DNA of 50,769 nucleotides, from positions 1 through 50,769 of the forward strand of contig MQRK01249966.1 of assembly GCA_001938485.1 (NCBI GenBank). Reading direction: 5' to 3'. The notes beneath the pieces were generated by a model, which was not told the DNA's origin, searched no databases, and saw only the letters and a program-made list of their open reading frames with translations. Below, piece by piece: positions 5,401 to 48,300 of the stretch. Each line of letters begins with the position of its first letter. Within the stretch, counting starts at the first letter, position 1. This stretch comes from Girardia tigrina. Taxonomy: Eukaryota. Position numbers and translations under genes: made by a program.

Positions 5401-8400
5401 GTGAGTCCTGGAGAGAAGCCTAAGCCCAGGATCAAGAAAGACCTGCACCCGATGAAGACAATGATTTGCGTATAGTGGGATTGGGAAGGTCTAATCCACT
5501 GGGAAATGCTTGGAAAGAACATGACAGTAGAAAAGAATCTCTATAAAGCTAAATTACATCGAGTCAATGAGGCAATTCAACAAAAAAGACCGGATCGATA
5601 AGGCCAGGTGATCCTCCTCAATGACAATGCTCGACCACACACCGCAAAAACTGTCAAGATGGCACTCCAAGAGCTCGATTGGGAGGTTATTCAACATGCT
5701 CCCTATTCCCCAGACCTCGCCCCGACGGATTACCATCTCTTCCGCTGCCTTTCAAATGAAATGAGGGGTCTTAGCTTCGAAAATCAGGATCATCTTGAGA
5801 ATTGGCTCAACAACTTCTTCGAGACTCGGACCTAAGGATTTCTGGCGAAATGGAATCAAAAAACTGGTGGAAAGATGGGAAGAAGTAGTGAACAATGAAG
5901 GGAGAGTACATAATTGATTGAAGTGTTATGATTTTTGCTGTTAAAATTTTATGATTTCATTAAATATATAATTAACTGAGTCATTATTTTGGTTGTTAAA
6001 ATTCTTCGATTTCTTTGAAAATAAATGTTTAAAAAACGGCGGGAACTTATGCAACAACCCAATACTTATTTCGTTTGGTAAATGATTTCTAGTATTATTT
6101 AACGCTCTATACATTGGATTAAAAGAATACAAAAAGATATATATTTATTAATAGACTAAATTATTCTTTAAAAAATATTTATTTACAAAATTTCAATTTA
6201 TTTTCAAAAACGTCAATTTCATTTTAAAAACCGTCAATTTCATTCTGAAAATACTATATAAAGTTAAAATTTGATATATTTTTCGAAAAATGGAAATAAT
6301 TAATTTTAACTAATTAATCAATGAGCTAGTAAATTGTTAAGATAAATATAAATATTGGTATAAAGATCTACGTAATTATTCAAGAGGAAATAAAATTTTC
6401 TTGTTGTCCTAAAACTACATCTGCCAATATTTAATAAATTTATATCACAAATAATTTTTAGTAAATGACAAATTGCAATTTGAAATTTCGCAATATTTAT
6501 GTAATTTATGTAATAATCTTAAATATCCATATAAAACATTACAAAGTTTCGAAAAAAAATCACATATCGCACACTTTTTATTGTTGATTAACCAATTTTA
6601 CAATAATGTCTGACTCATTGCAAGTTTTAATTTGAGAAAAAAAGTTAACCTGGATACTATACAGCCATTACTCATTTTCGTTAAGAAAATTTAGAATTTA
6701 CACTATTTTATAACAAAATACATTACATAATAAAATTCTAAAGGTTTGTAATTCAAATTACTAGCACGAGTTGTGGTAAAAAAAGTAAGGAAAATATTTA
6801 TTAATGAAACGGTATTCTTGCCGCCTTTATAAGTACGACCAGCTGCAGCATTATAATAGTTTACACATTTGAACTAACAACAATGATCCTATTCTGATAC
6901 TAAATTATCACAAGATACTGCAACACTTACACTGCAAAAATGATCAGATTCAGTCTGTTTATTCAGATGTTTTATTTTGAAAAAAGAATACTTATTAAAT
7001 GAGCGTGTAACTAGAGAGAAACTTTAAGACTCAAAGTAGAATACTATTTTTTCACATCCATGAATTTTGAAATTTTCACAATTATAAGCTTTTCTATTCT
7101 TCTGACATCTCGGATGTAAATATAAAATTCCTTAAAATTTTTCCAAATATTCTACGAGCCTACATTAAACTCGATAATATTTTTAAAGTCACAGGTCGCA
7201 GGATTAGACTTTTATCCTTCCTCTTATTATTAGAACTCTGATTTAAATTCGTCATCATGTAACCGAATATCAAAAATCCAAGATACAAAAAAGTAATAAT
7301 AATAGAAAAATAAATAATCTAAATAATTGCTAAATTTATTTTTATCATTTGAATAAGAATTCAGCTAATTTTGTCTATTTTATGCGTAAGAAATTTACAT
7401 GGACTTCATTTAAAATGAGAAGCCTCATCTCTCATTCTAAGATTTGTAGCCTTCAAAACCCAAAAGTATTTTTGATAACTCAAGGTAATGATTAAGAGAA
7501 AAAGCTTAAAAAAATAAATATATTTTAATCTATTTTGTTTTAATTTGTTCTATCGATCGAATTTATAATATTTTGCTAATATTATACTTAATGATAAACT
7601 TCGAAACGAGTCATGTTTTGATTGGAATGACGTTCGCAATTAACGCTTTTATGGTCAATTACAATTGCAAGTAGATATTAAATATAAAAACTTTAATTTA
7701 TTTAATTTAGCAATATCTTGTTGATCGAAATTTACTACAGCACTGACTCAATAATTTCTGAAGATCCGAAGAATTTTACAACTGAATACCTCAATTCGTT
7801 GACACCATCAGGAATGTCTCCTGTACTGGTACTCAGAAAAGAACAATAATAATGTTGCTTAGAAATCTGAATCCTAATAAAGGACTGTTCAATGGAACAT
7901 GATTTATAGTAGAAATACAATACAACTTTTAAGAAATACAATTATTGCATGTATTGCATGTATTCACAGTGTAATTATGAAGAAATACGAATTACCCTTG
8001 CACTACAAGATAAAACTCTGACATTTATTCTAAGAAGACATCAGTTTCCAGTCATGCCAGCATTTTGTATTACTATATATAAGTCACAGTAACAAACGTG
8101 ACAAAGGAGGAATAGATTTGGAACAACTTGTCCTTTGTTCAGGGCCAGATATGTGTTACGTATTCAAGAGGTCGAAATTCTAACACTATCAAAGTCAAAG
8201 TGTCTCAAATACCAGAGCAAGACAAGCTAATGAAGGATGATCGAGAATTCACGAGTAATTTCGTTCATAATAAGATAATCAAAATGTAAAAATGAAAACA
8301 AATATTAATGAGACTTTAAAAAATAAACGTGATTTTTATTCAAGTGAAATTACGGGACGGGGGACTAGCCGCTGAAAACCTACTAGTGCCTCATTAATCC

Positions 8401-11975: not shown

Positions 11976-13181
11976 GACGACGCGTTTCGAAATAATAAAA
12001 ATCCCATCATCAGGTCACAAAATACACTACACAAGTACACAATATGGTAGCTTGCCGAACATAAATAAAATTTATCCAAAAAATTATTGGATGAAAATAA
12101 TTTTAAATTTCGAGAGCTCGAAACGCGTCGTCTTGTTTTTATCCCTATTATATAGATTTTACTTTGCAATGTATATATATATATATATATTTATATACAG
12201 TATGATTCATAAGTCTGTTCACCACCCTTATTTTTTGAGAAAAAGATCAAATTTTTAACAAAACATTTATTAGGTGGAACTTTCAATACTTAGTTGAATG
12301 TCCTTTCATGTCCTTTATCATTTTTAATCGCCTAGGCATGGATTCAACAAGACTTTTACAATAGTCTTTTGATAGTTCGTACCATATTTTTTGAACAGCC
12401 ATCCACAGCTGTTCTGATGATGTGCACCTTATCGTCTGTAATTTCCTTTTTAAAAGTCCCCATACATTTTCGATAGGATTAGCGTCTGGTGAATTTCCTG
12501 ACCATGGTAAAAGGTCGACTTCCTTTTTTTAAGAAATTAAATATCGACAGTGCACGGTGTGGTGGTGCAAGAAATGAATGAAATGGTGCTGAAAAATGAA
12601 TTGTTGTTTTGGAAATACCAAGCACTTTCCAATAATATCAATGTCATGTATTATTCCTGGTACATTTGAGCATTCATTGAACCTTCTACTTTTCTAAGAA
12701 GACCTACCCCGTTTGCCGAAAAGCACCCCCAGACATGAACTTTGGCTCCGTGGCTCATGGTTTCATGGATGTTTCCGAGTTTNAGCNTTTCATTTCTAGT
12801 TCGTCTGATCCAACGTCTACCACGATGATTATAACATTGGAAAATGCATTCATCGCTAAATATAACAGAATACCAAGTTTCTTTATCCCAATTTTGATAT
12901 AATGAAACCAACTGCATTCTTCTTTGTCTCTGTTTAGCGGTAAGGAAAGGTTTCTTTACAGCTTTGAATGCCCGTATTCCATATTTCTGTAAAATCCTGT
13001 CGATTGTCGACTTACTGACTCGATTTTTAGCTTTTGAAATTATTTTTCACAAACTGACATTTCCAGTAAAAGGTGAGAAGTGTTTTATTAAGCTTTGCGA
13101 AAAATTCAGAAGCTGATATATATATATATATNNNNNNNNNNNNNNNNNNNNNNNNNNNNNNNNNNNNNNNNNNNNNNNNNN

Positions 13182-13232
<51 letters not shown>

Positions 13233-16200
13233 GCTATTGAGGAAGAAGAATTAAATATCCTTGTAATATTTAACGTGGAAATATCATTGTTTAAACGACT
13301 TATGTGTTTAAACACTCTTTCTGATCTGGCGCTTAGTTTATGAGGTCTGCCTCCACGTGGTTGATCTTTCACTTATCCTGTTTTTAAATACTTCGCCCAT
13401 ATTTTTTGCATTCCACGTTTTGAAATATTTCTATTATATCTTCTAAATAGTTTGACCTTTATTTGATTCCATGTACTTCCTTCATTTTTAAGCGCAACAA
13501 TCATACCACGTTTAAATTCCCTAAATACTCTTGGCATTTAATTTATCTAAAATTTAAAAAAATAAGTCATTAATGAAAATTTCAATATTTAACATATAAA
13601 TTCAAATGTGTAGCATAAAAAACTATATATAAACAAATATTCAAAATTAATATGACGTAAAATTTTTAGTTAGAAAATAAGTAATCAAAATACGAGGGGT
13701 GAACAGATTTATGAATCATACTGCATATATATAATATTGAGTCTTGTGAACGCAAGTTTAGTATTTCGAAAATATAATTTGATTAAAGCTTTTTTTATAT
13801 AATTATTGGACATGTTTCGATGTTTTTCATGTTTCCGAAAATTGTTGATGATGATGTATGTAAAAATCATAGAATTCAATTAGGTGGCCCTCTCTCCCGA
13901 TCTCTTCTAGTGCCTTCCTAATTTTTGATAATTGTGACACTCAAAAACTTATCGTGAAATAATACTAGTTGTGAGGAATGTTTTGAATTGCTTGTTGATA
14001 TTGTGCATGTCGGATTGTGTCTCTTCTATCCAGATGGCTGATTGGTATTTTCTTTAATTCTTATTAATTAAAATAATTTAACTTAATTTTAAAGTAAAAA
14101 GATTTAAAATAATTTTCGAATGCAATATTTAATTTTTAATGTAATTTATAATAAAATATATTAATTGATCCTTTTATAAATTGTTTAGAAAATAGTTTTG
14201 TTTAAAACTTAGTTTGAATTTAGAAATATATTGATCAAGAAAATGTCAAATAGCGAAAGTCTTTTGAATAATTGTTGTCATTATAATTGTAAGTAGCGTT
14301 TATGCCACTTTCATTATTATCACATTCTAAAGCCATAATTTAACACCACCAAAAATTTATTACTATAACAATTCACATTTCTAAAACAAATTTTCCTGTN
14401 NNNNNNNNNNNNNNNNNNNNNNNNNNNNNNNNNNNNNNNNNNNNNNNNNNNNNNNNNNNNNNNNNATATTTTTGTTTTCTTGACATTTTTAATTTTAAGA
14501 TATTTAATATTATTTAGATACATTAAAGATATTTTTTATTTTTAAATAAATATTTTACTTTTTTATGATTTTCTTTTATTATATGATTTTTAATTTTTTA
14601 AAATATTTAATAAGTAAATTAACATAAAAATATTTTACCCTTTAAATTAAAAAAATAATAAACTATTCAGGCGAGATAAAAATTTAAAATTAACACCTCA
14701 TAATAATAATGATTGTGGTGTTAATAAATGTTTGAAGAATCATATTGATGTTGTTAATACTGGTAAAAATAAATAAATATAGTTAAAATAACTCGAAAAT
14801 AAGGTTAGCAAGTTAGGTTTAAATTGTGATAATAAATGAAAAACCTGAAAGAAATTCTTTATTTCATATGTCAGAGAGAGATGTGAGGAATTTCCAATCT
14901 TTTTCGTTTAAATTTTTAAGTTTGCGTGAAAGAGCCAGGTTCTTTTTATATCCTAGTAAAATGTGGATCTATCATATCCTAAAAACGGATCTAATTCGGC
15001 AAAACAATGTAAAAATTACTATAGAATTCATTTGGGCATCCCTCTTCCCTTAAGTTAAGTCATTAAATTGTGACGATTGAAGAATAACTTGGAAAAAAAT
15101 TCTTTTGTGTCAGGGAGAAATGGGAGAAACGTTCAGTCTTTTGCTTACTTTTCGAGTGCAATAAACAAAAAAATCCTGGATGTATTTGGTTATGGTTCCC
15201 CAACAGTTTAAGAGTTTAAATCTATGGAAAGTTTAACTTTAACAGCATGTTGGACATTTGCTTTTGTACATTATCTTCATTGGAGTTGTTCAAGTGTCTC
15301 TAATGTTCCACGTTTATAAGAAATTTGTTTCTGCTATTTTAAAAATTTTTAATAAATTATTTTATTTTGATTTCAAAAAAATGATAATTTTTAAATAATT
15401 TCATAAATTAATGATTAAATCAAACGGTAAGTTAGCAATTAAACTCAAATAACACCATTTCAACTTTAAATTTTCATTGGAAAACATGTTTCGCCACTTT
15501 TGTGTCATCTTCAGTTCTGTATTTAATTAGAAAGTTATTGTTTATATAGTAAGATGACCATTACGTCACAATGTGTTACGTCAAAATACTCTAATCTGAT
15601 TGGACGAATCACTTTGCATATTTAAACTAGGTGTACAAAACTTTATTAACAGTGCTTCAGTAAATGTCCTTTCATAATTGTCATCAAAGTTACTAATCAA
15701 AAAATTCCATATTCCGAAGGTGCTGGGATTTTAAACAAATTTCAAAAAAACAGGCCCCAGTAGGTGTTACAATTAAAATATTGTTTCTAACTAATAAAAT
15801 TTCTTATTATTTTTCAAATAAATCTAAAACACAATTGGGTATGAAAGCAAATTTAGTTTACCAATATAAATGTCACAAGTGTGAATCCTTGTACATTGGA
15901 GAGACAAATCGTCACCTCCGATCTAGAATTGCAGAACATACCCAATCAAGTAGAATAAGCTCAATTTTGGACCACACAGTGAAATGTCATGGAACTCAGA
16001 TGATGGTATTTGATAATGATTTTCGGGTTTTGATTAGTAACTTTGATGACTGTGAGGATAATTAGATGTATATAAGTATTTATACAGTGTCATGTGGTTA
16101 ACTGTAGTTAACCAGCATTTAAGAAAAAATGGCGGATTCTGATTTTTTCTTAATTAGGCTGATAAATTTATTTGTTAAATTTAAAACAGTAAGATTTTTT

Positions 16201-19200
16201 TATAATATTTATTTACAGAACAATTATTACAAAAATTAAGATGTTTCTGCATTCAATCACCGTGGATATCGTTCTTCAGAATGCAGTCAACAAAGAATTT
16301 CTTCAGATGATGGAAGTAATTGGACATATCTTTGTTGCTTTCATTTGCTGCCACAGCCTCGATTTTCTACTGCAAAACGACCAGCCTTTGGTGATGGCTT
16401 AGTGTCAGGAGGCCTGGATGGTTTGTTATTGCTGTCCTGACTTCCCGCTTCATTTTTGCGAAAAATGCCTCATTTGGATTGAGGAATGGAGAATATGGCG
16501 GCAAATTGACCATTTCATGATTGGAGACAGTGTTGGAATGGATTCTCGCATTATCCTGGATTAAATAATGCGGTGTCCCTGGCAGAATCCTCGATAAATC
16601 GTTTATGAATGATTGATATTTGGCATGATCCACACTGCCACAGTATAATTTAATTAGCAGGATACCCTTCCTGCCTATTGCCATAATGAGGGACATATTT
16701 TTCCCCTGTTTGTTGGGATGACAATATTCACCGGATTACCTCTCTTTGAACGACCGAATTGGCGGCTGGTCCATAAATTAATCCGATTTCGTCAATGTAA
16801 ACACATTGACTAATTCGCCAATCTTCCTTCATAAATCAGCAGGCATATTGAAATCGGAGGTCCTTCACTCGATCAGAATTTCGTTCTTGGACGGAGCCCC
16901 TGATCTTCTTAATGGTAATTAATTTACCGGTGAGGAAGCGGGAAATTGTGGATTCCGATATATTNNNNNNNNNNNNNNNNNNNNNNNNNNNNNNNNNNNN
17001 NNNNAATGTGGATTGCGGTTTCTCCTCCACATACCGAATTATCGTCTCGCCGATTTCGTCGGTAATAATGGATTTCTTGTGGCCTCCATGTTTACCGACC
17101 GATAGGAGACCGCATTTTTGATATTTATATATGATGTTCTTTGCAGCTGATTGGGATATATCCAGCTGCCTTGCAGGAGTCAAATAGTCCTCTGACATAT
17201 TGTAGGCTCTGACGAGTCTTTCTTTGTCGATTAGACTTATTCTTGAATAATTTTATTATTTTAATTTTAAATTGTAAATAAAAATTACGATTTGCGAGTT
17301 TTCTTTATCCGACATGGTTGTGTTTTTTGGCTGTCCTCGGTATCGCTGCTATGATTATTTAATAAAATATCATGATTGACAATAAAGTACCTTATTTCAG
17401 TGTCATCGGCACTGCTAACGGGCGATAAATTGTAATGTTCCAGCATTTTTGAAATTTAATTTTTTTACTCTTAAAGTCTGGATTCACTCTTAAACGCTGG
17501 CAAATCAGGTGTGTATGAGGTATGTATGAGGTGTGTTTTTGTCTCTGTATGTATGTATTGTATGTGTGTTTTGTGTGTATGAGGGGTAGAACATTCTTTT
17601 CTATAATATAAACTATTCTTCAATGCTGTGAGTTATTTTTATCATCTGTTTAAACGATTTTTATGATTTTTAATTGGCTATTTATTTTTAGATTTCCAAT
17701 TTTCATTTGGATTTTTCAAACGAACGATGTTAAGTCACTGTTAATTGCCAGTGACTGTAATAACATATTTCTATTTATAATTATAATATATTAATGGATC
17801 CAAAGTATTCTTAATAAAAATCTCCTGTGTTTTAATATTCAGAAAATTTGTAACAGATTCAAATTATTGTGTAATTTGTTATTAAAAATAAATGTTGGAA
17901 AATTCTTATAATGACAATTATGAAAGGACGATTACTGAAGCACTCTTGCTAAAGTTTTGTAAACCTAGTTTAAATGTGCAAAGTGATTTGTCCAATCATA
18001 TTAGAGTATTTTGACGTAACACATTTTGTCATAATGGTCATATAAATAATATTTGTCTAAAAAGTGTGTTTGGTTGTCAGTCACGCTTTTCAATGTTAAA
18101 TTGCGGACGAACTGGAATGAATCTTCAGTGAAAATTCTGTATAAGAAACGTTGCCTGTGACAATGGGTTCCTTGGTGTCGAGTGAGATTTTGAGCAGCAA
18201 TGGAAAGCCGCTGATCCCTCTGTTTTTGGGTGAGTTCGTGCGGGACCCAAGCTCCAAGCTTTTGAGTGAAACCCATGGACTGAAGATGGCGTGAAATTGT
18301 CGCAAAATCACAATTCATCTTTTCGGCCAATTCTCTGCATGTCTGGCGGCCATCTTCCTTCAAAAGAACCCCGAGTTGGTCCTCGTCCATCTCGACTGGT
18401 CTTCCGGAACGAGGAGCGTCGTTGAGGTCGAAATTATCGTGTTTGAACCTGGCAAACCAATCCAGAGCAGTTCTCTCAGCTAAAGCGTCCTCTCCATACA
18501 CGGCACAAATATCTCTGGTAGCTTCACTCGATTTTTGACCTCGATTAAAGGCGAAAAGAAGGAGGTGTCGAAAATGCGATTTTTTGTCGACTTGACAATC
18601 CATTTGACGGTTCTAAAAAAAGACAAAAAAATAATATAGGCAAAAACGATTACTTTAATCTTGTAGAGCATAGTACGGGCTTTCTAATGGTATATAACAC
18701 TTCGCCAAACATCAAAAAGTCTTTGTAGAACAAATAGTTTCATGTAACGGCGGGAACTTATGCAACAACCCAATAATTACGATTTAAAAATAAAAACAGA
18801 AACTTTCAAAGTCGGAAATTCAGCTCACCCGTCATTTATGACGGGTCTTTTTCTAGTCTTACTATATAAACAATAACTTTTCACTTTAATACAGAACTAA
18901 AGATGCCACAAAAGTGGCGAAACATGTTTTCCAATGAAAATTTAAAGTTGAAATGGTGTTATTTGAGTTTAATTCCATTAATTATTTTAATTTATTTCCA
19001 GAAAAAATCATTTATTTCAACTTTTAAATTAAATTTTTTAATTAAAACTAAAAATTTTAAATATTTTTTCCTAGAAAGAAAATTATTAATTTTAATTCGA
19101 TTTTGAGAATTTGGATGTTTTATTTCAAAATAAAATAATATTTTCGGAAATGAATTGAAATAATTTATTAAATATTTTGTAAAACGATTAAAGAAATATC

Positions 19201-21160: not shown

Positions 21161-22665
21161 CTCAGCGTCATAATTTTTTCCACTTTTTCTTTTATAATGT
21201 AATTAAGTCATAATTTAAATGATCGCTTATCAATTCTTATAAATTAAAAAAAAATTCAAGACTTTGATTTCTACCTAATTTAATTCATTATTATGACTTG
21301 TTTAAATTAATCAATTACATTTTAAAAATATTTACTTTTTTAAAAGCGTCATAATTATTTCCATTTATATATTTTTTATACATGTATTATATTTTATCAA
21401 AATATTTGTAAATACCTGAATTTATTATGTTGTTTTAGATATTAAAATGTATTCAGAAGAATTGAAGAAAGTTGCTTTGAATCTGAGAAGTGGTAATAAA
21501 ACATTTGAAGAAATTGGAAAAATTCTAGGTATTACTAAAGAGGTTGCTAGACAATTGTGTCGGTATAAAAGTGTAAAAATACCAAGAAAACGAGGGCCAA
21601 AATTTAAAATTGTCAGCAGAGACAAATTGTGTATTAAACGAGCAATTTCTGCNNNNNNNNNNNNNNNNNNNNNNNNNNNNNNNNNAAAAATTTTAAAGGA
21701 GACTAAAATTGACGTTAGCAAGCGTACACTACAAAGATATATGAAACGTAATGAATATAAATACATCAAAGCAAGACGGAAAATTTATCTCACAAAGGCC
21801 CACAAACAGATTCGAGTCCAAACCATAACTGAATGGTTTTCGAATAACCAAAACTGGCAGATAACAGCTTTCAGCGACGAGAAGAAATTTAATCTGGACG
21901 GCCCAGATCATTGGTGCACGTATACGAATGAAAATGAAAAATATTTTCTTGAAAGCAGGCAATGTAAAGGGGGTGGAATTATGATATGGGCAATGATACT
22001 GCTCAATGGTTTGATAGCTCATAGATTTCTGAAAGGGAAATTTAAATCAAATAACTATGTACAGTTATTGCAAGAAGTAGTAGTGCCTATATTAAAACTT
22101 AACTATGGAGAAAATGTATTTTATAAGGATGATAATTGCTCCGTACATCGGGCATTCTGCGTAAAAGAATTTATGAAATCGACAGGTATAAACACTTCAA
22201 AATGGCCATCGAAGAGTCCAGGCATAAATCCTACAGAGGATGTTTGGAAAATGATATCAGAACGCGTATACGATGGTCCTCAATTTTATTCAACTGGTAC
22301 TTTAATGCAAAAGATCAATGAAGAGATAAATCACATAAANNNNNNNNNNNNNNNNNNNNNNNNNNNNNNNNNNNNNNNNNNNNNNNNNNNNNNNNNNNNN
22401 NNNNNNNNNNNNNNNNNNNNNNNNNNNNNNNNNNNNNNNNNNNNNNNNNNNNNNNNNNNNNNNNNNNNNNNNNNNNNNNNNNNNNNNNNNNNNNNNNNNN
22501 NNNNNNNNNNNNNNNNNNNNNNNNNNNNNNNNNNNNNNNNNTATTTAACTATCGAGAAATAGCTTAAGCAATTGTCTAATATTACAATATATAAGGAATT
22601 AACATATTGCTTTATAATGAATATTAATTAAAAATTTAAAAAGCGGAAAAAAATATGACGCTGAG
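21161..22665 (+). mobile_element. Tc3-like DD34E transposon, full length
   Basis: TIRs CTCAGCGTCATA..TTTTTTCC with TA TSD. Confidence 0.93.
21447..22339 (+). CDS. Tc3-like transposase (open up to the N gap; true stop lies in or after the gap)
   Basis: FSDEKKFNLDGPD, GGGIMIWA and DNCSVH-x-WPSKSPGINPTE (D34E); no stops in the sequenced part. Confidence 0.88.
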
Positions 22666-23560: not shown

Positions 23561-25348
23561 CCATCAGTTTTTAGAGTTCAACGGCAACTCTGATACATAA
23601 TCTACGTCTCTCCAGGTTAATATTTCGCCAGTGGGAAACCGACGCGTCTCCTCTGCGCGCATCAACAAGTCGTGTGTGCTTCGGAGCGCCTTCGGGTTCA
23701 ACCAGTAAAAGGTATTGCCCGGCTGGTAGCAACAGCGTCTGAAGGGGTTGTGTTATTTCAGATCGAATTTTAAATGTTTCACCATGTTCGTTAAAATGAA
23801 TAAATCGGACGAAGAGAGCCCTAAGGAAATAAACGTCGGCCCGCCGCGTGCCCCTTGCATTCTGCGGCAGCCTGTGTCATCCCCAAAAGGTTCCTCGTTC
23901 TTTTGCGATTAAATTATCATTCAGAATTTACATTGATTTCGTGCTTAGTTACACTTTGACAAAATACTCTACATTCAACTTTGAGTTCTTTTTATAACTT
24001 TGTAATTTAATTTTTTATTAATTCTATTTTATTAAATTAGCACTCGTAGCCCTGAATTTTTATAATCAGAAGTGCAATCTTTTCTCTACTGTTTCCTGAT
24101 GTCAAATTTAATTAATGTGGTTCAACAATTGTTGGGAAGCACAGTGACCCTCCGACATTTCTGCTGTTTGGTGTGATAGATCAACTTTTCTCATTACCTT
24201 TTTAATCTTGAGTTCCTACACTCTTTCAAAAAAAATTTTGAAATAAACTTTTCTCTACCTCGATTTTATAACCACACATCATATTACTAAAGAGGGCCGT
24301 TTATATGTTTATATAGGTTTGTCATAGTTATTTTGACAACGACCTTTCCTCTTTTAAAATAGAATTAAAATTCGGAAGACTTTAAATCAACTCCAACACT
24401 CCGATAAGTTCGGGATCTATCCCAAGCTACCAATCTCAAAACCAATAATTTGTCGTAATTACTTACCAGAGCGAAATCAATAAAAAAATAATTAAGGGAA
24501 ATTACTAAAATTATAAATTCCAAATTTATATTAAAATCAATATGAAGGAGAAATTACGAAACTTTTTTAATTTTAATTACCAACTTTACAACAGGCAAAT
24601 TAAATTCCTCAATCATGAGTTTTAATCATAAAATAACAAAAATAAAAGAAATTTAATCTTTGAATTCATTAAATAAAATATAAAGAATTAGCTAATTAAA
24701 TTAGTCAAAGTTAATAATTTCAGATAAAATTTTGCCTTTAATTGAATCGAGTAAATAATTAAGTAAACCGTTAAATTAAATCAATTATAAGTCGTTGCTT
24801 CTAATGCCAATTAAAATATTTACATATCATAAATATTATTACAGGGGAGTTCCATACGAATATTAAACTCATCGTTGTTATTTGTATCATCATAAAATTT
24901 ATTATTATGAAACTCCAAACCATAATAAAACTTTCATGATAAAATTTCGTAAGGATTACAATAAAAGTTATAAAATAAAATTACATATTAGAATTCAACT
25001 CATCGTGTCACTATGTGAAGAAGAGTGGTAAGGAGCATTAGCCATAATCCCGAGCTTTCCTTATCACCCATACAATCTTTTATATATAGGTAAACCTTTC
25101 ATAATTTTAATTTTCATGATTCTCCCTTTACAAGCTTGTCGTCCTCTATAACCATGCTCATGTTGGCTATTACTTTGAACTTTCTCTAAAACCGATAAAC
25201 TTCTATACCCCCCACTCGGCGTCTTCACTCCTTATCTTTTCGTCGACCCACAAGATCCTCTCACTCCAGTCTTTCCTTCCCAACTGTCTCTCTCCAGTTA
25301 ATCCCCTTATTCTTGAATGGTAGCGGAATTCACGCTTATCTGCACCCC

Positions 25349-25518
25349 TTCCCGCTCGTGACACCATGAGTATTTTAAGAATTAAATAAAATAATAAGCA
25401 ATAAATAAATTAGGAGTAAAAATAAAAATGTATTAATTTACACAAATTGTAAACACCAATTATCAGATAATATTAAGGAAATTAAAATTCATAAATAAAC
25501 AAACAAAGTAGTAACTCA
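25349..25518 (-). mobile_element. Short LTR (25367-25518) with adjacent primer-binding site
   Basis: Termini TGAGT...ACTCA, followed immediately by TGGTGTCACGAGCGGGAA (tRNA-Leu-like PBS). Confidence 0.6.
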
Positions 25519-25971
25519 TCCATACCTTTGACTAAAATATTTCGATCTCTCAAAAGAACTGTCGTATTGATAAAACAATGAATCGCCAAAACAAAATCGT
25601 TGAATCGGTAAAATCAGTTGAGACGAATTAAACCAGTAAAATCGGTACAATATCGTGCAAAATAAATAATAAAGTTAGTGAAGTCTGTGCAAATTTGTGT
25701 GTGAATAATGATAATAATAAGTGAGTGTTTACAGTGTTCAAAGTGTTCAGATGTTCAAGTGTTCAAGTGTAATGGATTACAGCCGCTTATCAAATATGAA
25801 TTTCCTCAAAAGTGTTCATCGTAAGCTTTTTTTCTTATTTTTTTAATTTTTTTCAAGAGTAACCTGTATGGGTAAAGATGAAAAAGATAATAATCCTATT
25901 TTTTTTAAAAGATCAAAGTCAACAACAACCAACTCCACACAGAGTAATCTTATAGAAAGGAATAGTCAAAA

Positions 25972-27148
25972 ATGTTAGGTCGAGATAACATATATGAAAA
26001 TAGAGCCCTCACGGACAATCTTGCATTCCCAAATGACATTAAAGTGTCGGATTTAGAAATCGAGATACATTTACGGGTTTTAACCCAGATGGATCCAGTA
26101 AGACTACGCGAAATATTTTCAAAGGAATGGTTAGGAGAATTGGAATTACATATTGTTAGTCATAGGGTGGAAGTTTCAACAAATTCCCAGAGATTTTTAG
26201 CCGATCAAACAATAACATCTCGGGTCACAGAAAACGAAATAAATGTGTTAGAGCGACGCACGAGTTGGAAATTGAACGAAGAACAATTAAATTTTTATGT
26301 GCGAGCCTACAATGCTCCTGCTTTAGTGGCCATCGAGTATAGAAAATCACCGGAAAACCCACATTATAACCCAAAATTTAGGGTTCATAAAGAAGAACTG
26401 GAAGATGCATTATATGAGCCAACAAAGGAGGACTTTAGTCATAGAAAAAGTTTTATAGGGAAACCTTTGTCAAAGAAGGAAATACAAAAAAAATTAATAT
26501 TTTTGATGCTAAATTCACAACGAACAAATCGATAAAGCAATAGGTTTTGTGTCCATTGCAATCATAAATATCAAGGGTGAGGAACTGATCAATGTATTCA
26601 CCACGCCCAGACAGAAAATAATATGCACAGGAGAAAGACATCACGGCATTACAGAGCCGATGATGAGAAAACAGAGGGACGAGTATGAAGTTATCGAAAA
26701 GGTCCAGCAACTGTGTTACGGAAAAATTCTAATGGGGCATGACCTCCAACTAGAATTAAAAGCATTAAATATAAATAAAAAAGAATTATTAGAAATTAGG
26801 GATTTGTCTGCGACGAGAACATTATATGAAATTGGTCAAAAATCCAAAGCAGGTGGTATACTCTTCAAGCGTCAAACATTAGCAAGGAATATCCTTAAGA
26901 GAAACATTCAAATTCCGGGATGCCACAACGCGTTGGAGGATGCCATAGCGATCAAGGATAGAGACAATGCAATCGAGCCAAATTATATCGATCACAAGAT
27001 TTGGGAATCCATGGAAGTAGATAGCCAAAAAAGGAAAACAGTTCTGGATTGTAGAATTATGATCAATGAAAAAAAGAGAAAAAGAAATCTTGAAGAAGAG
27101 TTAAAAATCTTGGATACAAATGATATAAAACATTTTTCTCTTCCTTAA
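25972..27148 (+). pseudogene. Unknown N-terminal domain plus REX4/ISG20-like DEDDh 3'-5' exonuclease (frameshifted)
   Basis: ExoI-like IFDAKF (~26490-26515, shifted frame), HHGIT, GKILMGHDLQLELKAL, IRDLS, LARNILKRNIQ and ExoIII HNALEDA (H-x4-D). Confidence 0.75.
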
Positions 27149-27296
27149 TTTGAAATGGATAAGCTTCAGCACATTCTACGACATCCATTAATGAATATAT
27201 TTTGCCCACTTCTGTTTGTGAACAATCATACGCTACTAAAGACATCGCTGGAGATATACTTAAGAATCAAATCATCATTAATGATAACTACCACAT
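27100..27296 (-). pseudogene. N-terminus of a chuvirus-like envelope glycoprotein (env)
   Basis: Hydrophobic leader MW*LSLMMI*FLSISPAMS, then LVAYDCSQTEVGKIYSLMDVVEC, matching the YDC-x-SLxDVxEC start of chuviral-type glycoproteins; truncated. Confidence 0.55.
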
Positions 27297-27299
27297 TTT

Positions 27300-29760
27300 T
27301 GAATTATTTTTAGATTTTTTACCATCATCAATTTTGTTATCTTTCAAGGATTCATTTCTTATTACTTTAGTACGAACGTTTTTACTTCTTTTTGATACAC
27401 TTTTACTTATTAAATTAACATTTATATCTACATCGGGAGTATTTTGATACTGAAACATATTTTCTTCCTTTTTTATTTCAACTTTTTGTAAATCATCAGT
27501 AAATTTGTTACAATCATTAATATCGTAAATTCTTCAATATAATAAACTGTTATATTATTAATTTCTTTTTCCAGAGATACATAATCATATAAATAATTTT
27601 CATCTTGTAATTCTAAATCCAAAATAAATAAAAGTACTGTTCCTTCAATTTTAAACATTTCTTTGACTTTTTGTCTTAAAGTTTTTACTTTAATTGTCCA
27701 AACTACAGCAGTATTAATTGTACCTTTTCCTGGAACTTCTATTGCTAGAAATAACTTTTGAATATCTTTATTTTTCTGTCTACTATATTGACCAAATTTT
27801 ATCAAAATTTCTTGTATTTCTTTTTTCGACATCGTTTCTTGTTTTAATTTATATATTAATACCGATCTAAGATTATTTATTACACTATCATTAATGTTTA
27901 ACGTTTCTATTTCTTTAATTATATTCTTTAACTTTTCTTCATTAACTTCATTTTTTAATAGTGTGAGGAATATTTTAAATTGTTTGAATGTGTAAATGTA
28001 TGGATGATGTATGTTGATTTAAGTATGTTGAATTTAGAATGGTGATTCTCCCACCAAGATGGAAATTGGTATTTTTTATTAAGTTTAAAGTGATTGACTA
28101 TTCGAACATGATTAAAATAATCATTTTATGAGTTCATATTTTTTTAATTTAAGAATTAAAATTAAGTTTAATATTTTTTAGTAAAATTTAAATTAAATGC
28201 ATTTTTAATAATTTCATGTCATTTTTATTATTTTGGGATTTATTGAAAAATGGTAAAAATTAATATTTTTAATTAATATTTTTTAGAGGTTAAATAATTT
28301 AAAAAATAATTTAAAAAAACTGTTCGAATAATCATGATTAAAAACAGAAATAAGAAAACCAACTAGAACTATGGCAAACGATGAAAGACCTTCTGAGAGT
28401 CTTAATGACTCTAAATGTAATTGCAATGAAGATTTAAACGAGACTTGTTTAAATGTTCTTAATAAATAGTAATGCCAAATCTTTAATATAATTTTCAGAT
28501 ATATTCATTTTATTATCATTATTTTCTAACATTATAATATCAAGTGTTAATGTTATTTGGTAATATTCCATAATCCACATAAATAGTATTCTAATTCTAA
28601 TTCAAAACATTTGAAATTCATAATAAATTTATCATTTCCAATCTTTTGCACAAGCATTTCCTTCAAATGTTTAACTTTCTGAAGATGATTTATTTGAATT
28701 ACTGTAAATTCTTGTCAATTAAGAGTTATAAAAATCTGAAGATTATCTGTCATAGGCATTTTTCTCAATTGTTCTCCTAAAAATTTCAAAAATGTTTTCA
28801 TTTCACAATTCATCGTTGTATTATAATCTAAATAATTCACTACCAACTTTATAAAATGTTCAGTTTTATCATTTGGTAAATTCAATTCAATTATTTCTTT
28901 AATATTTTTACTTATTTTACCATTTAAATCTTTATTCATTTCCATTTTGTTTATTAATCTACTCATATATATTCTCGATTTATCTAACTTAACATCATCA
29001 ATTTTATCAGAAACACTTTGAACTTTACTTTCAATTTTACTATTATTTTCATTTTGTTTCAATTTATTTTTATTTTTATCTTTCGATGTTGATAGCATCT
29101 GTACACTTGGATCAGTTTTATTAAGTTTTTTTAATTTTCTTCTTCAAAATTGATGGTGATGGTATTTGTATATTTGATTTACATTATCTGGCAACATGAC
29201 CATATTTTTTATATTTTTCACACTGTATTTGACCTTCACTGTTAAGTTTTGCTCTCTGTGGAGAAGGAGTTAAAGATCTATTTCTAGTCATATCTGTTCT
29301 ACATACATTGGCTAGATGAACTCTTTTCACACATTTGTAACATGTTTTAATAGGTGATTTTCGATTATTATTTGTATTATTCTTGAACCAACATTGACTG
29401 CTGACATGACCAATTTTGTTACAGTTATAACATTGAGGTTTTCTTGTATAATTATTTGACTCTATACTGTCGTTAAATCTCATTGATCTTGAAAAATTCG
29501 GACTTCTCAAATAATTTGGGCTTTCATTATTGTTATTTCTACAACCAAAATATTGATTTTGTCTTGGATTTTAATTTTGGGGTCTGTATCTTTGCATTTT
29601 TGGAGATGCATAAATTTGAAAATCTTCATCTGTATCATTGTTGTTTGAATATGTCTTCTGTTTAGGTCTTTCTATCGGTTTTAATTCAGTTACATATACT
29701 GGTCTGTAGTGATCACAATTTATTAATTTAATAATTATTAATTTAATTTTAACAATCAAA
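27300..29760 (-). pseudogene. Degraded retroelement Gag-like polyprotein: 3 CCHC knuckles, coiled-coil region and ubiquitin-like domain
   Basis: CYNCNKIGHVSSQC, CYKCVKRVHLANVC and CEKYKKYGHVAR*C; K/N/E-rich helical region at 28715-29098; UBL-like 27473-27832; frame restored across the solo-LTR insertion (YIKDLALL|LKNEVNEE). Confidence 0.7.
27962..28464 (+). mobile_element. Solo LTR, TGTGAGGAA...TTCTTAATA family
   Basis: Perfect 5-bp TSD AATAG; near-identical to 3236-3712. Confidence 0.88.
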
Positions 29761-29976
29761 ATTTAATAACAAAAAAATGTGTAAAAATGCGAAATTTAAT
29801 TTAAAAAAAACAATGGAGTGAATTGACAACATTAGAACAGAAAAAAGTATCGAAAAAAAAACTTAAAAAAATTAACACTATAATTATGTTGTTTGAATAA
29901 TTTCAATTTGGTCGTTACTTTCAAAAAAAATATATATCTTTTGTGATTGTAAATAAAATCTTTGTACAGATTTAAA

Positions 29977-30440
29977 ATGTTTTTCTATTTTGACCAATTT
30001 TCTCAACAAATCCGTTATCGAATTTAATGAAATTTAATTGAAATTTCTGAGTGAAATTCGAACGATTGGTCATGACCATCTACAAAGAACTGACAATCGA
30101 CGATATTATCGAATGTTTCACTGATCCCTCGAACAAAATCGACAGTCAATTGTTGAATATTTTCTTGTACACCTATCGGAATTATTCGCCTGTAATCAAC
30201 TTTTTTGACTCGAAAATGCATTCGATTCCCGAACCCGATCAAACTTTCCAATCGTCAAATTTCAGCAACGATCACACCAACTCGACCAATGAGAACAGCG
30301 TCAGTTTACTCAACCAGTCGCCCGTGGCCGACTTCAATTTGTCTCATTTGGATCAATCGGCGGCCAACAACAACGGTAACAACCTCACCAATCATATCAA
30401 CGGCACTAACGGCAACTCGATCGCCCTCAAGTCAAATTGA
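29977..30440 (+). pseudogene. RasGEF N-terminal (REM) domain fragment, RalGDS/RGL-like
   Basis: KFERLVMTIYKELTIDDIIECFTDPSNKIDSQLLNIFLYTYRNYSP matches the REM pattern (T.d.lie.l...D...l.iFL.TYR.f). Possible 38-nt intron at 30014-30051; CpG-rich like host exons; no downstream CDC25-domain exons found. Confidence 0.55.
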
Positions 30441-37202: not shown

Positions 37203-39351
37203 ATGAAACCACTATGTGTAGTTTTGTTGCTATTAAGTTTCATAGTCGTCGCGAGATCGCAAATCGAGGGTTTATATTGTGGCAAAGACAACTGCTATGA
37301 AGGTAGAGTTTTGATTGTCGTTCTGATTTTCGTTTCACGTGGCAAATAAAATTAAAAAAAACAGTTCTCGGAATTACTCGAGACGATGATAAAGCAACAA
37401 TTAGAAAAGCCTACAAAGTATTGGCGAAGAAATTCCATCCGGATAAACAGAGAACCGAAGAGGACAAAGAAGCGGCAGAAATAACTTTTAGGAAAATTGC
37501 CGCGGCATATGAAGTAATACGAGTTCAAATAATTTTTGCGATTTTTTGTCCATTTTTTTATTAAAAGAAAATCGGGTTGCGACCCTCATATTCTTAGAAA
37601 TTGATGTTAATATAATGAAAAACAATCTTCTTTTTCAATTATTTTAAAATGATTTATTGTTGTTATTTATGAAAAATGAATTTTTAAGAAAAATATTATT
37701 TAAAGTTAAAGTAAGTCCTATTTAAGTCTAAACTGGAGTAAAATATGATATATATATATATATTAAACCAAATTTGTGTAATTGCCGAATTCGTGAACTT
37801 GTCAAAATTTTCCTAATTCACTGACTATTTGAAAAATTTTCAATATAATATGAAAAATCTCAATTTATTATGCAAAATAGACTCGAAGTGTAAAATTTTT
37901 ATTCATAGTTATTACAACTTATTTCTGGGTGACAAGCTGAATCGCAAACGTTTGTATTTTTAAAACATTTTTTTCGTATTAAATGCAGAATATTTTATAT
38001 TAATTTCATAATTGAAATAAAAAAATTGCCGTTCTCGAATTTGGGAAGTCGATTGCCGAATACACAAATTCGCAGAACATATATATTAGGTTGGAGAAAA
38101 AGAAATCCATTATTTTGGCGTGAAATTCAAAACTTTATTTAACATGTTTCGGATTGTTCTCTTGGAGTCAAATATGCACTGTTTTGTTGTATTATTAGTT
38201 GCCATTTTGAAGGTAGCTTCATAATGCCTCTCTCGTAGAAGTCTTGGTCCTTATTGGCGAAAAACTGTAGTAATCGATTTTCACAATCTTCTATTGATCC
38301 CAATTTCTTATCACTCAGGAAATTTTGCAATGCGAGAAAAAGATGGTAATTGCTTGGTGCTAGGTCCGGACTATATGGTGGATGCGTTAAAACTTCCCGG
38401 CCAAGCTCCCTGAATTTCTAGCGAGTCACTACAAACGTATGTGGTCTGGCGTTGTCGTGATGGAACTCAACACCTCTTCTGTTGACCAATTCTGGTCGTT
38501 TCTCATCAATTGCTATCTTCAAACGGTGCAGTTGTTGACAGTACAGATCTGAATTTAGTGTTTGGCCAAGCGGAAGCTACTCATAATAAATGATTCCTTT
38601 CCAGTCCCACCAAATACACAGTAGAACCTTCCTGGCCGTTAGTACTGGTTTGGCGACCGTTTGAGGTGCTTCACCGTGCTTTGACTACAATCGTTTTCGT
38701 ACAATATTGTCGTATCTCACCCTTTTCTCATCCCCAGTAACCATCCGTCTTAGAAATGGGTCGATTTCATTTCATTTGACCAAGGCTTCGCAGATTGAAA
38801 TTCGATCCATCATGTTTTTTGGTGTTAATTGGTGTGGAACCCAAACATTAAGTTTCTTTTTGAATCCTGCTTTGCCCAAATGGTTTAAAACCGTTTTGTG
38901 GTCAATCTTCAGCTCCTGTGCGATTCTACGACTACTAACATGCCGGTTAACTTCGATCATTACCGAGATTTTATCGACATTTTCAACGATAGGCCTGCCT
39001 GTGCGAGTTGCATCTTTAACATCAAAAATGCCTCCACGGAATCGACGAAACCAAAATTGCGTGTAATTAACTGTTACAGTATTGGCACCATAAACACCAT
39101 TCACAATAACAGCCGCATGGCTTGCATTTTCGCCTTTATCGAATGAAAACTGTAAACTGTACCGAATTTTTTCTTTGTTGACTTCCATTTTTAACATCCT
39201 GTAGCTCAGAAGTGAATAAAAAAAGCAAAAAATTTTTTGTGAAATTACTGTGAAATGTTACCTTGACAAAGATCATAAATTTGAAATTGTTTCATCGATA
39301 AATAATTAATTAAAATAATAGTTTAAAATAATGGATTACTTTTTCCCCAAC

Positions 39352-45300: not shown

Positions 45301-48300
45301 TTCGGCCATATATCAGTTACCAAATTTTATGAAACTGTAAGATGGCAGTGTAATTGACATGCTTTAATTGTACATAATTTATGTACTGTACTTTCTGTTA
45401 CGACAATTTTTTTTACAAATCTGTTGTACTATGTAAATTATATTGAATGATTTTTGTTAATATAAATCTTCTTGTAATCAATTAAATCACAGGGTTTGCA
45501 ATGAGACTCTTGCTTAGTCTGACCAGTTACATTAAAATTATTCTTTTATTTTAAAATGCCACCAAATTGGATTTGTATTTAGTTATCGATCATTGTCGAC
45601 TTCAAATCAGATGGAATCATTTCCCCATTTGTCAACCATCCCTTAAATCTTTTCTCTAAATTACATTCGCTTTAGTACACGTTACTGTTATTCTCATTTA
45701 TTTCTTTCACTTTGTCGCATCTGCATTCAGTCACTTATTTTATTTGTACCATTTTAAAATAGGTTATTAGTTTAAGTCAATTATTTATTGTTAATATTTT
45801 GATAATATAAAACATTTACAATTACAGAAGAGCAGCGGTCATTCAAAGACTGCTAAATTAAATCTTTCCTATTAATATTTCAACATTACAAAATGAGTCA
45901 AAAAACACGTGGCTTTACAAAACTAATGGTTGCACAAGATATAATAAAAGAACATCAGAATAAGCCACGCATTTGAAGACGAGAAGCATTTGTTAATTCA
46001 TTGATCGATAATGTTGTGTATCTATTGTATAGGAATATATGCACGATCCAGTAAGTCATATAATCACTACAGCTTAATACATAGAAGTTCTGACATTGCG
46101 CAGATGGTTGAGCACTCGGTGGTACACAAGGTCTGTCCAATGACAATTAATTTGGTGAATACATCACTTAATTAACGTTAATTTTTATTTGTTGGAAAAT
46201 TAATTTTTCCACGTTGCATTAATCGAATAAAACCCGTGAATCATGCATATCAATTAATGTATCAATGTTGTCATCAATTGAAAATTAATGTTTTATGCGC
46301 ATGACGTAATTAATCATTTTCGAATTTCTTTGATAAAGAATTCACGTCATCAGTGCTGATTTGGAGGAATTCAGGAATATTTCCTGGTTCAATGCATCAA
46401 TGTATGCTTTCCGTATGAATCGAACTATATTCTGTTTGGTTCTTATATATAAAATTGATTCTGATAGATCTTTGAAGGAAGCCCTTGACTTTGATTTAAT
46501 TGATTTTAATGAAGAAAATTATCTTCCACATGAACAGGTTGAGCGCCATGGCTGTCATTATGTCGCTGGCAAGGTTACATATAACGGAGTGATTTTTCCA
46601 TGGTGACCGCTCTTTCTATGCATTTTATTTTGCTGCATGGCCGCTTCGATCCTATAGATTGTATAAATAGCAGTTTATTAAATATATATATTAATTTTGA
46701 CATAGAGCTCAACCTGTTGACCTAAATGATAGGGAGAATAGTTAACTTTTAAAATCTATTTCTTTGCACTTTTGGACGAAAAATGACTTAACAAAAGTGA
46801 AGATATTTCTATATCTATTTCAGTGATTTGAAAATTTTATTCGAATTTCTTTAGATTTGAATGAATATATTGTTTAGTTCTGTACCGAGATGCTCTCCTT
46901 TTAATTTCTATATTTTATCCAAATAATTTTCAAAAATTTCAATCATTGAAATATTACAAGCATATTTGTTTTTTAATCTTATAATTCGAAATCCAAAGTT
47001 TTATATTTGATAATAACATTGTTCTTCAAATTAAGAGTATATACGAAAAGAGTTCAATAATATATTTACATAGACGAAAATGATACAAAGTTTATTTTGA
47101 TTTTTCTATGTAATCTCCATTAAGCTCAACGATTTTGTAGTTTTGTGAGGTATTGGAACGATAAAGACAGTATTTTGGGATCTAAATTTAAAATTTTTAT
47201 TTTATATGAATGTAAAAGTTGGATTTCATACTGTTTTTCCGACTCCAACTCCACAGTCATATTTAGATGTTTATTGTAAGCTGTAACGATTTCGTCATGT
47301 TTCAAAATAAATTCTTCTTTTATTTTAGAGCCATCATGACACTAAAAACTTAGAATTTTTTTAAGAAAAAGATATTCTTGTAATACAATGTTAATTAATG
47401 TATCAAGATAAAAATTATAATGTCTAATCTGATTGAAGGTGTAACTTAGTATAACTTAGTATACTTTAAACTCTGATATAAGGTAAATATTAAATTAAAT
47501 TCACATGCTCGAAACTCAAAAGAATGATGAGGAAGAGCGTGTTAAGACACAAAGATTTGGATTATTATATCATATAATAATCCAATTAATTTGAAGAACA
47601 ATGTTATTATCAAATATAAAACTTTGGATTTCGAATTATAAGATTTAAAAACAATTGTAATATTTCAATGATTGAAAACTTTGAAAATTATTTGGATAAA
47701 ATATAATATAGTATATATATATATATATATAACTTCAAGTTTAACAATCTTTATTGATAAAATATTACTTATAGTTGAATAATGATTGATTTATTATTAC
47801 CTAGACGCACACTAACAATACATTCAACTAACCAGAACTATTTATGTATTAATTAAAAGTCATTTCCCGCTTATCGGAATTCATTAAAGTATTACATATC
47901 TCATAAATTAACATTTTTGGACGGTATCCAGCGATATTTAAATCAATGTTTAACTTGTATTAAAATAAAGGTAATAATAATCCAAATCCAAATTGGAGAC
48001 TTATTAGGAGGATGAAGGGGCATGTCAACACCATAGAAATCCGAGAGATATGACTAACATTTGGAACGTCAGAGAATGTTATCTACAAAGAAAAAATTAT
48101 TTCGATTGTTCTTAACGTTTTATTAATTTATTTAGTTTTTAGATTTTGATATCATACTATATGAAGTATAGAAGTATAGAGGCCAAAGTTTTCAAATTCT
48201 ATTTTTAGTATATGAAAAATAAATGTAAAATTTATAAACACAAAAAATATACAAGGTTCGCTGTTAGAATCCGGAAAAATATATTACACAAAAGATTGTT

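What the first reader, a model, noticed from the sequence alone, without database searches (positions are those of the whole stretch)
27100..27296. Chuvirus-like envelope glycoprotein N-terminus
A leader (two stops) is followed by LVAYDCSQTEVGKIYSLMDVVECAE. From my recollection of the family, this matches the (G/A)YDC...SLxD(V/I)xEC signature that starts chuviral/Jingchuvirales-type glycoproteins. Sitting downstream of a gag track, it suggests env capture in a probably non-arthropod host. Only ~60 aa remain.
Basis: partly seen in the sequence, partly recalled or inferred. Interest (0 to 1): 0.7.

Follow-up and report, generated by a model that had tools for sequence, protein, structure and literature searches.

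The report
Broken envelope gene of planarian retrotransposon
This is the broken first 61 codons of a virus-like envelope (membrane-fusion) gene in a decayed copy of a giant gypsy-type retrotransposon, of a kind already described in flatworms, so it is real but ordinary.

Summary
The peptide is real and lies on the minus strand (27296-27114, 61 codons, two stops in the signal peptide). It is the N-terminus of a class III fusion glycoprotein (Pfam PF24664). A natural 745-aa paralog, 94% identical, scores 290 bits, has a C-terminal TM segment, and its model matches chu-like virus G and herpesvirus gB. It is not a free-standing chuvirus insertion. Its nearest relatives are envs inside single gag-env-pol Ty3/gypsy polyproteins, which form their own clade (97/99); chuvirus G is only about 22% identical. 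By my hand count the paralog is 63% identical to the published Schmidtea mediterranea 'errantivirus_1' env. The window repeats the known layout: gag zinc knuckles, ubiquitin-like module, linker, env. This copy carries a 508-bp secondary insertion and is cut at 27113, where it meets an opposite-strand exonuclease gene. The layout is published (Burro/GYPSM1, PMC6431247; GAG-ENV-POL gB-type elements, PMC13524379). The host is probably a planarian (inferred). Recent capture from a chuvirus is not shown. Verdict: decayed new member of a known kind, low interest.

The parts
27114..27296 (-). env N-terminus: signal peptide (27296-27240, two in-frame stops) and the first ~42 residues of a class III (PF24664, gB-type) ectodomain
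   Evidence: paralog P0003
27113..27121 (.). break point where env ends and the opposite-strand exonuclease gene takes over; the two homologies overlap by up to 9 nt (possible microhomology join)
   Evidence: env homology to 27114; exonuclease homology to 27121; loose end at 27113 in one contig of run X15
27297..27533 (-). charged linker in frame with the env signal peptide; a frame change separates it from the upstream ORF in this copy
   Evidence: similar linkers in P0002 and P0004; X6 contig 28 spans 27214-27573
27476..27956 (-). helical domain plus ubiquitin/SUMO-like domain (pre-env accessory module)
   Evidence: a profile from 4 relatives ranks it first of 839 segments, E 4e-6; UHRF1 Ubl E 0.06; Atlas Rad60-SLD 0.82, a lead only; single-sequence fold uninformative
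27957..28464 (.). secondary ~508-bp very-high-copy repeat inserted into the element; a second copy lies at about 3236-3712
   Evidence: joint 27956>28465 in 4 of 4 runs laid, loose ends at both termini; 86% identical copy
28465..29143 (-). broken ORF pieces between gag and the Ubl module; possibly a first, decayed copy of the helical(+Ubl) unit
   Evidence: matches P0006 402-476; second-ranked but not significant, E 0.33
29187..29570 (-). gag nucleocapsid region, CCHC zinc knuckles; no capsid domain seen upstream
   Evidence: PF00098 E 2.9e-5; collinear with P0006
25966..27121 (+). multi-copy DEDDh (RNase T family) exonuclease gene, split over two frames and cut at its 3' end; whether it belongs to the same element is unresolved
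   Evidence: PF00929 E 2.5e-6; homologs P0157 and P0158, 495 and 559 aa, 56-69% identical; depth table

Best explanation
The stretch is the dead 5' end of the env region of a GAG-ENV-POL Ty3/gypsy LTR retrotransposon (Burro-like; the same subgroup as the published S. mediterranea errantivirus_1/2), most likely in a planarian genome. Shown here: the order gag knuckles, Ubl module, linker, signal peptide, class III ectodomain; a 745-aa natural paralog with a TM segment and a gB-like fold; relatives that carry PR-RT-RH-IN in the same ORF after env; and breakage of this copy by stops, a frame change, a 508-bp insertion and truncation at 27113. Inferred for intact elements: one long polyprotein is made; the internal signal peptide and TM segment thread the ectodomain into the ER while Gag and Pol stay cytosolic; signal peptidase and the element's protease release the parts; the trimeric class III protein could let particles fuse with other cells. 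This copy makes no env and is a genomic fossil.
For: P0003 is 94% identical to the fragment and scores 290 bits on PF24664. It has 14 Cys before the TM segment, a TM segment at about 550-577 and 2 N-glycan sequons in the ectodomain. Its model has pLDDT 81; top Foldseek hits are chu-like virus G (E 1e-41) and herpesvirus gB (E 4e-15). Of the 23 hits scanned, 5 carry env followed by PR, RT and RNase H in one ORF (P0008, P0009, P0013, P0018, P0019; 4 of them reach integrase) and 6 more carry env followed by PR; P0154 is a 4844-aa example. P0009 pol is closest to Ty3 among solved structures (E 5e-119). P0003 falls in a clade of such envs: FastTree 0.998, 16 of 115 sequences; IQ-TREE 97.4/99, 14 of 38. 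P0003 46-201 against Smed_errantivirus_1: 98 of 156 identical by hand count. Reads show the element is multi-copy and that another copy continues env past 27113. The layout is published.
Against: No pol, LTR or capsid domain of this copy can be seen. The integrase remnant at 23543-23007 is only 22-31% identical to the relatives' integrases and probably belongs to another element. P0003 has no protease within its 745 aa, so env-pol fusion in this exact family is inferred. The Ubl call rests on weak scores and a profile whose segments I chose by eye. No Bcl-2-like domain lies between Ubl and env, unlike Burro1 as described. The host name is inferred; no genome was held. The 63% figure is a hand count over one 156-residue block.
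Confidence: 0.9

Rival explanations
1. An endogenised chuvirus glycoprotein gene that happens to lie near a gag remnant, or one captured recently from a chuvirus.
For: The top Foldseek hits in the viral library are chu-like virus G. Named chuvirus G proteins (Wufeng shrew chuvirus 2, Tacheng tick virus 4) are among the best-scoring stand-alone hits, E about 1e-43 to 1e-41.
Against: They are only 22% identical and lie outside the clade holding P0003. Env is in frame with an upstream linker, and gag-Ubl-linker-env is contiguous in other copies. No N or L gene was found among the neighbouring ORFs scanned. PMC13524379 argues for an ancient origin of gB-type env.
Confidence: 0.04
2. An Anakin-type Bel/Pao element (pol then env) rather than a gypsy gag-env-pol element.
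For: Anakin uses the same glycoprotein family. P0089 carries DUF5641 followed by env.
Against: In the window no pol lies between gag and env. P0089 is 21% identical and sits in the other part of the tree. The relatives' pol has the order PR-RT-RH-IN after env and is Ty3-like.
Confidence: 0.02
3. A non-autonomous family that keeps gag-Ubl-env but has no pol of its own and is moved in trans by Burro-type elements.
For: P0003 ends without a protease. No related pol is in the window. Depth over gag-env is high.
Against: P0003 comes from a 2347-nt contig and stops 30 residues after a YP motif that lies 30-54 residues before the protease in 7 of 10 relatives (motif chosen after inspection), which fits a cut or broken polyprotein. 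Its close published relatives are listed as intact elements spanning 14.8 kb.
Confidence: 0.04

Closest known systems
Smed_errantivirus_1 and _2 (GAG-ENV-POL Ty3/gypsy, HSV/gB-type env, Schmidtea mediterranea; Chary & Hayashi, PMC13524379)
   Same: Class III env downstream of gag. Env block 63% identical to errantivirus_1 by hand count, about the same as errantivirus_1 to _2 (63.7%). Multi-copy (45 and 215 copies listed).
   Different: A separate family at about 37% amino-acid divergence in env. This copy is decayed and truncated. The window's peptide did not occur in the 7 supplement files searched, but the env alignment rows that I saw begin just after it.
Burro/GYPSM1 giant planarian gypsy elements (Arkhipova & Yushenova, PMC6431247, section 7)
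   Same: Gag CCHC knuckles, then a Ubi/SUMO-like domain, then env in frame before PR. Hits to mononegavirus fusion glycoproteins. Decaying copies with stops and frameshifts were already noted in a dugesiid.
   Different: No Bcl-2 between Ubl and env; no MATH, BIR or ankyrin seen in the surviving part. That paper also cites HHpred homology to gypsy (F-type) Env; my model gives a class III gB-like fold, in line with PMC13524379.
Anakin (mosquito Pao element with chuvirus-type glycoprotein; PMC7642597)
   Same: Same glycoprotein family carried by an LTR retrotransposon.
   Different: Bel/Pao rather than gypsy. The one hit here with a DUF5641 domain before env is 21% identical and in a different clade.
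Chuviridae G (Tacheng tick virus 4, Wufeng shrew chuvirus 2)
   Same: PF24664 family, YDC-type start, class III fold.
   Different: 22% identity; stand-alone ~660-aa proteins of negative-strand RNA viruses.

Membership tests
Class III / PF24664 (gB-type) fusion glycoprotein | Profile match above the curated cut-off | tested here: met
   The fragment alone scores 14.4 bits (below 27). Paralogs at 96% and 94% identity score 63.8 and 290 bits.
Class III / PF24664 (gB-type) fusion glycoprotein | Signal peptide, Cys-rich ectodomain, C-terminal TM segment | tested here: met
   Hydropathy and Cys positions of P0001 and P0003. The window keeps only the signal peptide and the first 2 Cys.
Class III / PF24664 (gB-type) fusion glycoprotein | gB/G-like fold | tested here: met
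   AF2 model of P0003, pLDDT 81; PDB hits are herpesvirus gB, E 4e-15, TM-score 0.34-0.41.
Class III / PF24664 (gB-type) fusion glycoprotein | Trimer formation and membrane fusion | not testable with these tools
   No functional assay is possible; the trimer was not modelled.
GAG-ENV-POL Ty3/gypsy with gB-type env (Platyhelminthes) | gag upstream of env on the same strand with no pol between | tested here: met
GAG-ENV-POL Ty3/gypsy with gB-type env (Platyhelminthes) | env groups with envs of gag-env-pol polyproteins | tested here: met
   63% to Smed_errantivirus_1 by hand count.
GAG-ENV-POL Ty3/gypsy with gB-type env (Platyhelminthes) | Gypsy pol (PR-RT-RH-IN) downstream of env | tested here: inconclusive
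   This copy is cut at 27113 and P0003 ends before a protease. Met in relatives at 22-39% env identity.
GAG-ENV-POL Ty3/gypsy with gB-type env (Platyhelminthes) | LTRs and primer-binding site | not testable with these tools
   No genome held; no flanking direct repeats among those listed for the window; no related loci were returned.
Burro1/GYPSM1 in the narrow sense | Ubi/SUMO-like domain before env | tested here: met
   E 4e-6 with a profile from relatives; other evidence is weak; the fold failed.
Burro1/GYPSM1 in the narrow sense | Bcl-2-like domain between Ubl and env | tested here: not met
   Only a ~79-aa charged linker. X6 contig 28 spans it without a gap. So not filed as Burro1 itself.
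Burro1/GYPSM1 in the narrow sense | Element over 25 kb with very long LTRs | not testable with these tools
   Only about 2.5 kb of this copy survives.
Chuviridae endogenous viral element | G nested among chuvirus G proteins, or linked N/L genes | tested here: not met
   Only 2 tree tips are named chuviruses, so the reference set is thin.
Anakin (Bel/Pao) | Bel/Pao pol domains between gag and the glycoprotein | tested here: not met
   No pol between gag and env in the window.

The most novel reading that the evidence does not exclude
This family is a distinct, perhaps still active, enveloped retrovirus-like lineage of planarians. It would differ from Burro1 by having tandem helical+Ubl modules and no Bcl-2, and by carrying an opposite-strand DEDDh exonuclease gene in its 3' region. 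Like 4 of 4 long relatives it may also encode a second signal-peptide/TM protein after integrase that could act as the attachment partner of the gB-like fusogen. It would then spread between cells as particles.
Probability: 0.2. Interest if true: 0.5.

Novelty: new member of a known kind. Interest (0 to 1): 0.17.

Why it matters
Little on its own: it is one fossil fragment of a published element type. It does show a further multi-copy family of gag-env-pol gypsy elements, with sequence in runs under three labels (two coded organisms laid at high depth plus one more, and a leaf-litter library), and it supports a class III rather than F-type fold for Burro-like env. The open question, whether these elements are infectious in planarians, is not made easier to test by this broken copy.

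Tried and rejected
No whole genome is held. Locus scans found no relative: P0003 in metagenome contigs (84 pattern hits, 0 confirmed) and viral contigs (11, 0); P0009 in genome contigs (21, 0); alignments were too diverse to scan with. A sequence search of the PDB with P0003 gave nothing meaningful (best E 0.09). The Atlas gave no usable hit for the 51-aa piece and only 0.82-0.83 leads for the Ubl ORF. A search for longer homologs of the Ubl ORF found 0 of 1344 candidates. The single-sequence fold of that ORF had pLDDT 37 and was not used. Expression is not claimed: X15 is an RNA library, but contigs cannot show transcription and its share is small. Depth is not used as a copy number. I considered the integrase at 23543-23007 as this element's pol and rejected it as unlikely (22-31% identity). 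Trees left out hits whose env slice was under 480 or over 800 aa (115 kept); the IQ-TREE run used 38 of these (22 chosen, 16 random). Branching between the retroelement clade and the viral proteins is midpoint-rooted and mostly unnamed, so no direction of transfer is claimed. The original Burro paper (Grohme et al. 2018) was not held, so whether Burro carries an antisense exonuclease gene could not be checked. Three look-ups of earlier scan findings returned nothing.

Full report
Observation. The reported peptide is in the minus-strand frame that starts with M at 27296. It has stops at 27290-27288 and 27269-27267, and the AYDC motif starts at 27233. The strict motif occurs once in the window's six frames and 0 times in 200 triplet shuffles. 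The 51-aa stop-free piece hits Pfam PF24664 (Monjiviricetes fusion glycoprotein) at 14.4 bits, below the 27-bit cut-off. A search for longer homologs returned 2 of 4 candidates: P0001 (96% identical) and P0002 (68%). They score 63.8 and 49.7 bits, and P0001 has an unbroken signal peptide. Homology to P0001 covers 27296-27114, 61 codons.

The full protein. P0001's cluster holds a 745-aa member, P0003, 94% identical to the window piece and 290 bits on PF24664. It has 14 Cys before the TM segment, a TM segment near 550-577 and two ectodomain N-glycan sequons. An AlphaFold2 model built on a 103-sequence alignment has mean pLDDT 81 and pTM 0.60. Foldseek ranks chu-like virus glycoproteins first in the viral library (E 1e-41) and herpesvirus gB first in the PDB (E 4e-15, TM-score 0.34-0.41).

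Nearest relatives. Against 1.84 billion representatives P0003 had 1385 hits at E<=0.001, of which 150 were listed. The top hits are long polyproteins. Of 23 hits scanned, 5 carry env followed by protease, RT and RNase H in one ORF (4 of them reach integrase), 6 more carry env followed by protease, and 4 have gag domains before env. P0154 is a 4844-aa example. P0009's pol is closest to Ty3 among solved structures (E 5e-119). In env trees P0003 sits in a clade of these elements: FastTree 0.998, 16 of 115 sequences; IQ-TREE SH-aLRT 97.4 and UFBoot 99, 14 of 38. Identity to clade members is 22-39%; to the two named chuvirus G proteins it is 22%. Most tips are unnamed and the root is a midpoint, so the direction of transfer between viruses and retroelements is not resolved.

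Anatomy in the window. On the minus strand the order is: CCHC knuckles (29570-29187), broken ORF pieces, an ORF with a helical and a ubiquitin-like part (27956-27476), a charged linker, then env. A profile built from pre-env segments of four relatives, chosen by eye, ranked that ORF first of 839 window segments (E 4e-6). Other support for Ubl is weak (UHRF1 Ubl E 0.06; Atlas 0.82), and the fold attempt failed. Contigs of four runs were laid on 24800-29800. All four show a joint 27956>28465, and depth in X1 is roughly ten times higher inside it, so 27957-28464 is a secondary repeat; another copy lies at 3236-3712. One X6 contig spans Ubl end, linker and env start. One X15 contig leaves the window at 27113 with 255 loose letters, and the 30 shown encode the residues that follow in P0003 (read by eye). 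The window copy is therefore truncated there. It meets a + strand DEDDh exonuclease gene (PF00929) whose homologs are stand-alone 495- and 559-aa proteins. The two homologies overlap at 27113-27121, which fits a microhomology join, but alignment ends are fuzzy. Whether the exonuclease gene is an antisense passenger of the same element is open; P0158 has only weak similarity to a stretch of polyprotein P0014 (E 0.008 in a small database).

What is known. PMC6431247 (passages; section 7 whole) describes Burro/GYPSM1 of planarians: gag with CCHC knuckles, MATH, Ubi/SUMO-like, Bcl-2, then env with hits to mononegavirus fusion glycoproteins, then PR-RT-RH-IN. [quoted passage not shown] PMC13524379 (abstract, passages, section 6 part 2, section 10 and supplement searches) reports GAG-ENV-POL gypsy elements with gB-type env in Nematoda, Bryozoa and Platyhelminthes, lists six in S. 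mediterranea, and argues that the env is ancient. The env block printed for Smed_errantivirus_1 matches P0003 46-201 at 98 of 156 residues by my hand count, close to the 63.7% between errantivirus_1 and _2. That makes a planarian host likely; the species was not determined. For Anakin I saw passages of PMC7642597; for arthropod Jingchuvirales EVEs the abstract and Results of PMC10084718; PMC12440569 (first part) was not relevant. The original Burro paper was not available.

Mechanism. This copy is inert. For intact elements, the layout of relatives implies one polyprotein whose internal signal peptide and TM segment place the class III ectodomain in the secretory pathway, with Gag and Pol left in the cytosol and released by proteolysis. 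That step and any infectivity are inferred, not shown. Evidence against full certainty: no pol, LTR or capsid of this copy is visible; P0003 ends before a protease; Bcl-2 is missing, so I file it as Burro-like and not as Burro1.

Verdict. Real, correctly assigned at the family level, but a decayed new member of a published kind of element. Interest 0.17.

Noticed in passing
P0008 2484-2740, P0009 2256-2566, P0018 2778-3196, P0154 4361-4734 (relatives, not in the window): All 4 polyproteins that extend far past integrase end in a second module with a signal-peptide-like segment, a 240-400-aa region and a TM segment. Mutual similarity is weak (E 0.01-0.3 among four sequences); no Pfam hit in that part. 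Possibly a second envelope or attachment protein. I did not search the literature for it.
   Followed up: partly
P0154, P0006, P0008, P0005: Several relatives carry multiple aspartic-protease domains in one polyprotein (up to 6 stretches in P0154), plus ankyrin and C2H2 domains.
   Followed up: no
P0009: A gag-env-pol retroelement polyprotein is named 'hypothetical protein [Flavobacteriaceae bacterium]' from a MAG; probably eukaryotic contamination of that bin.
   Followed up: no
window 25966-27121 (+): Multi-copy DEDDh exonuclease gene facing the env fragment head-on; homologs are stand-alone ORFs on ~2-kb contigs. It may be an accessory gene of these elements.
   Followed up: partly
window 25368-23007 (-): A TGG-starting, primer-binding-site-like sequence at about 25368 (seen by eye, not tested) followed by decayed pieces and an integrase core with SH3_Tf2 tail: probably a second, unrelated gypsy remnant.
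   Followed up: partly
window 27957-28464 and 3236-3712: A ~508-bp AT-rich repeat of very high depth, 86% identical between the two copies, with weak terminal inverted repeats seen by eye; MITE-like, not classified.
   Followed up: partly
window 4864-5475, 18001-18612, 38772-39257; 16367-16735; 815-1237, 12651-13046, 16836-17252, 21420-22562: Mariner remnants (HTH_48; two copies 95% alike in inverted orientation), a DDE_3 transposase piece, and further Tc1-like remnants recognised from recall only.
   Followed up: no
window 15697-16065 (+); 30051-30440 (+); 49953-50357 (+): GIY-YIG endonuclease piece, Penelope-like by recall (PF01541); RasGEF N-terminal motif, probably a host exon (PF00618); an ORF piece resembling a DnaJ-family membrane protein by recall, with no Pfam hit.
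   Followed up: no
window 46909-47705: A pair of inverted arms about 69-83 nt long, up to 99% complementary, about 550-630 nt apart; probably a small non-autonomous DNA transposon.
   Followed up: no
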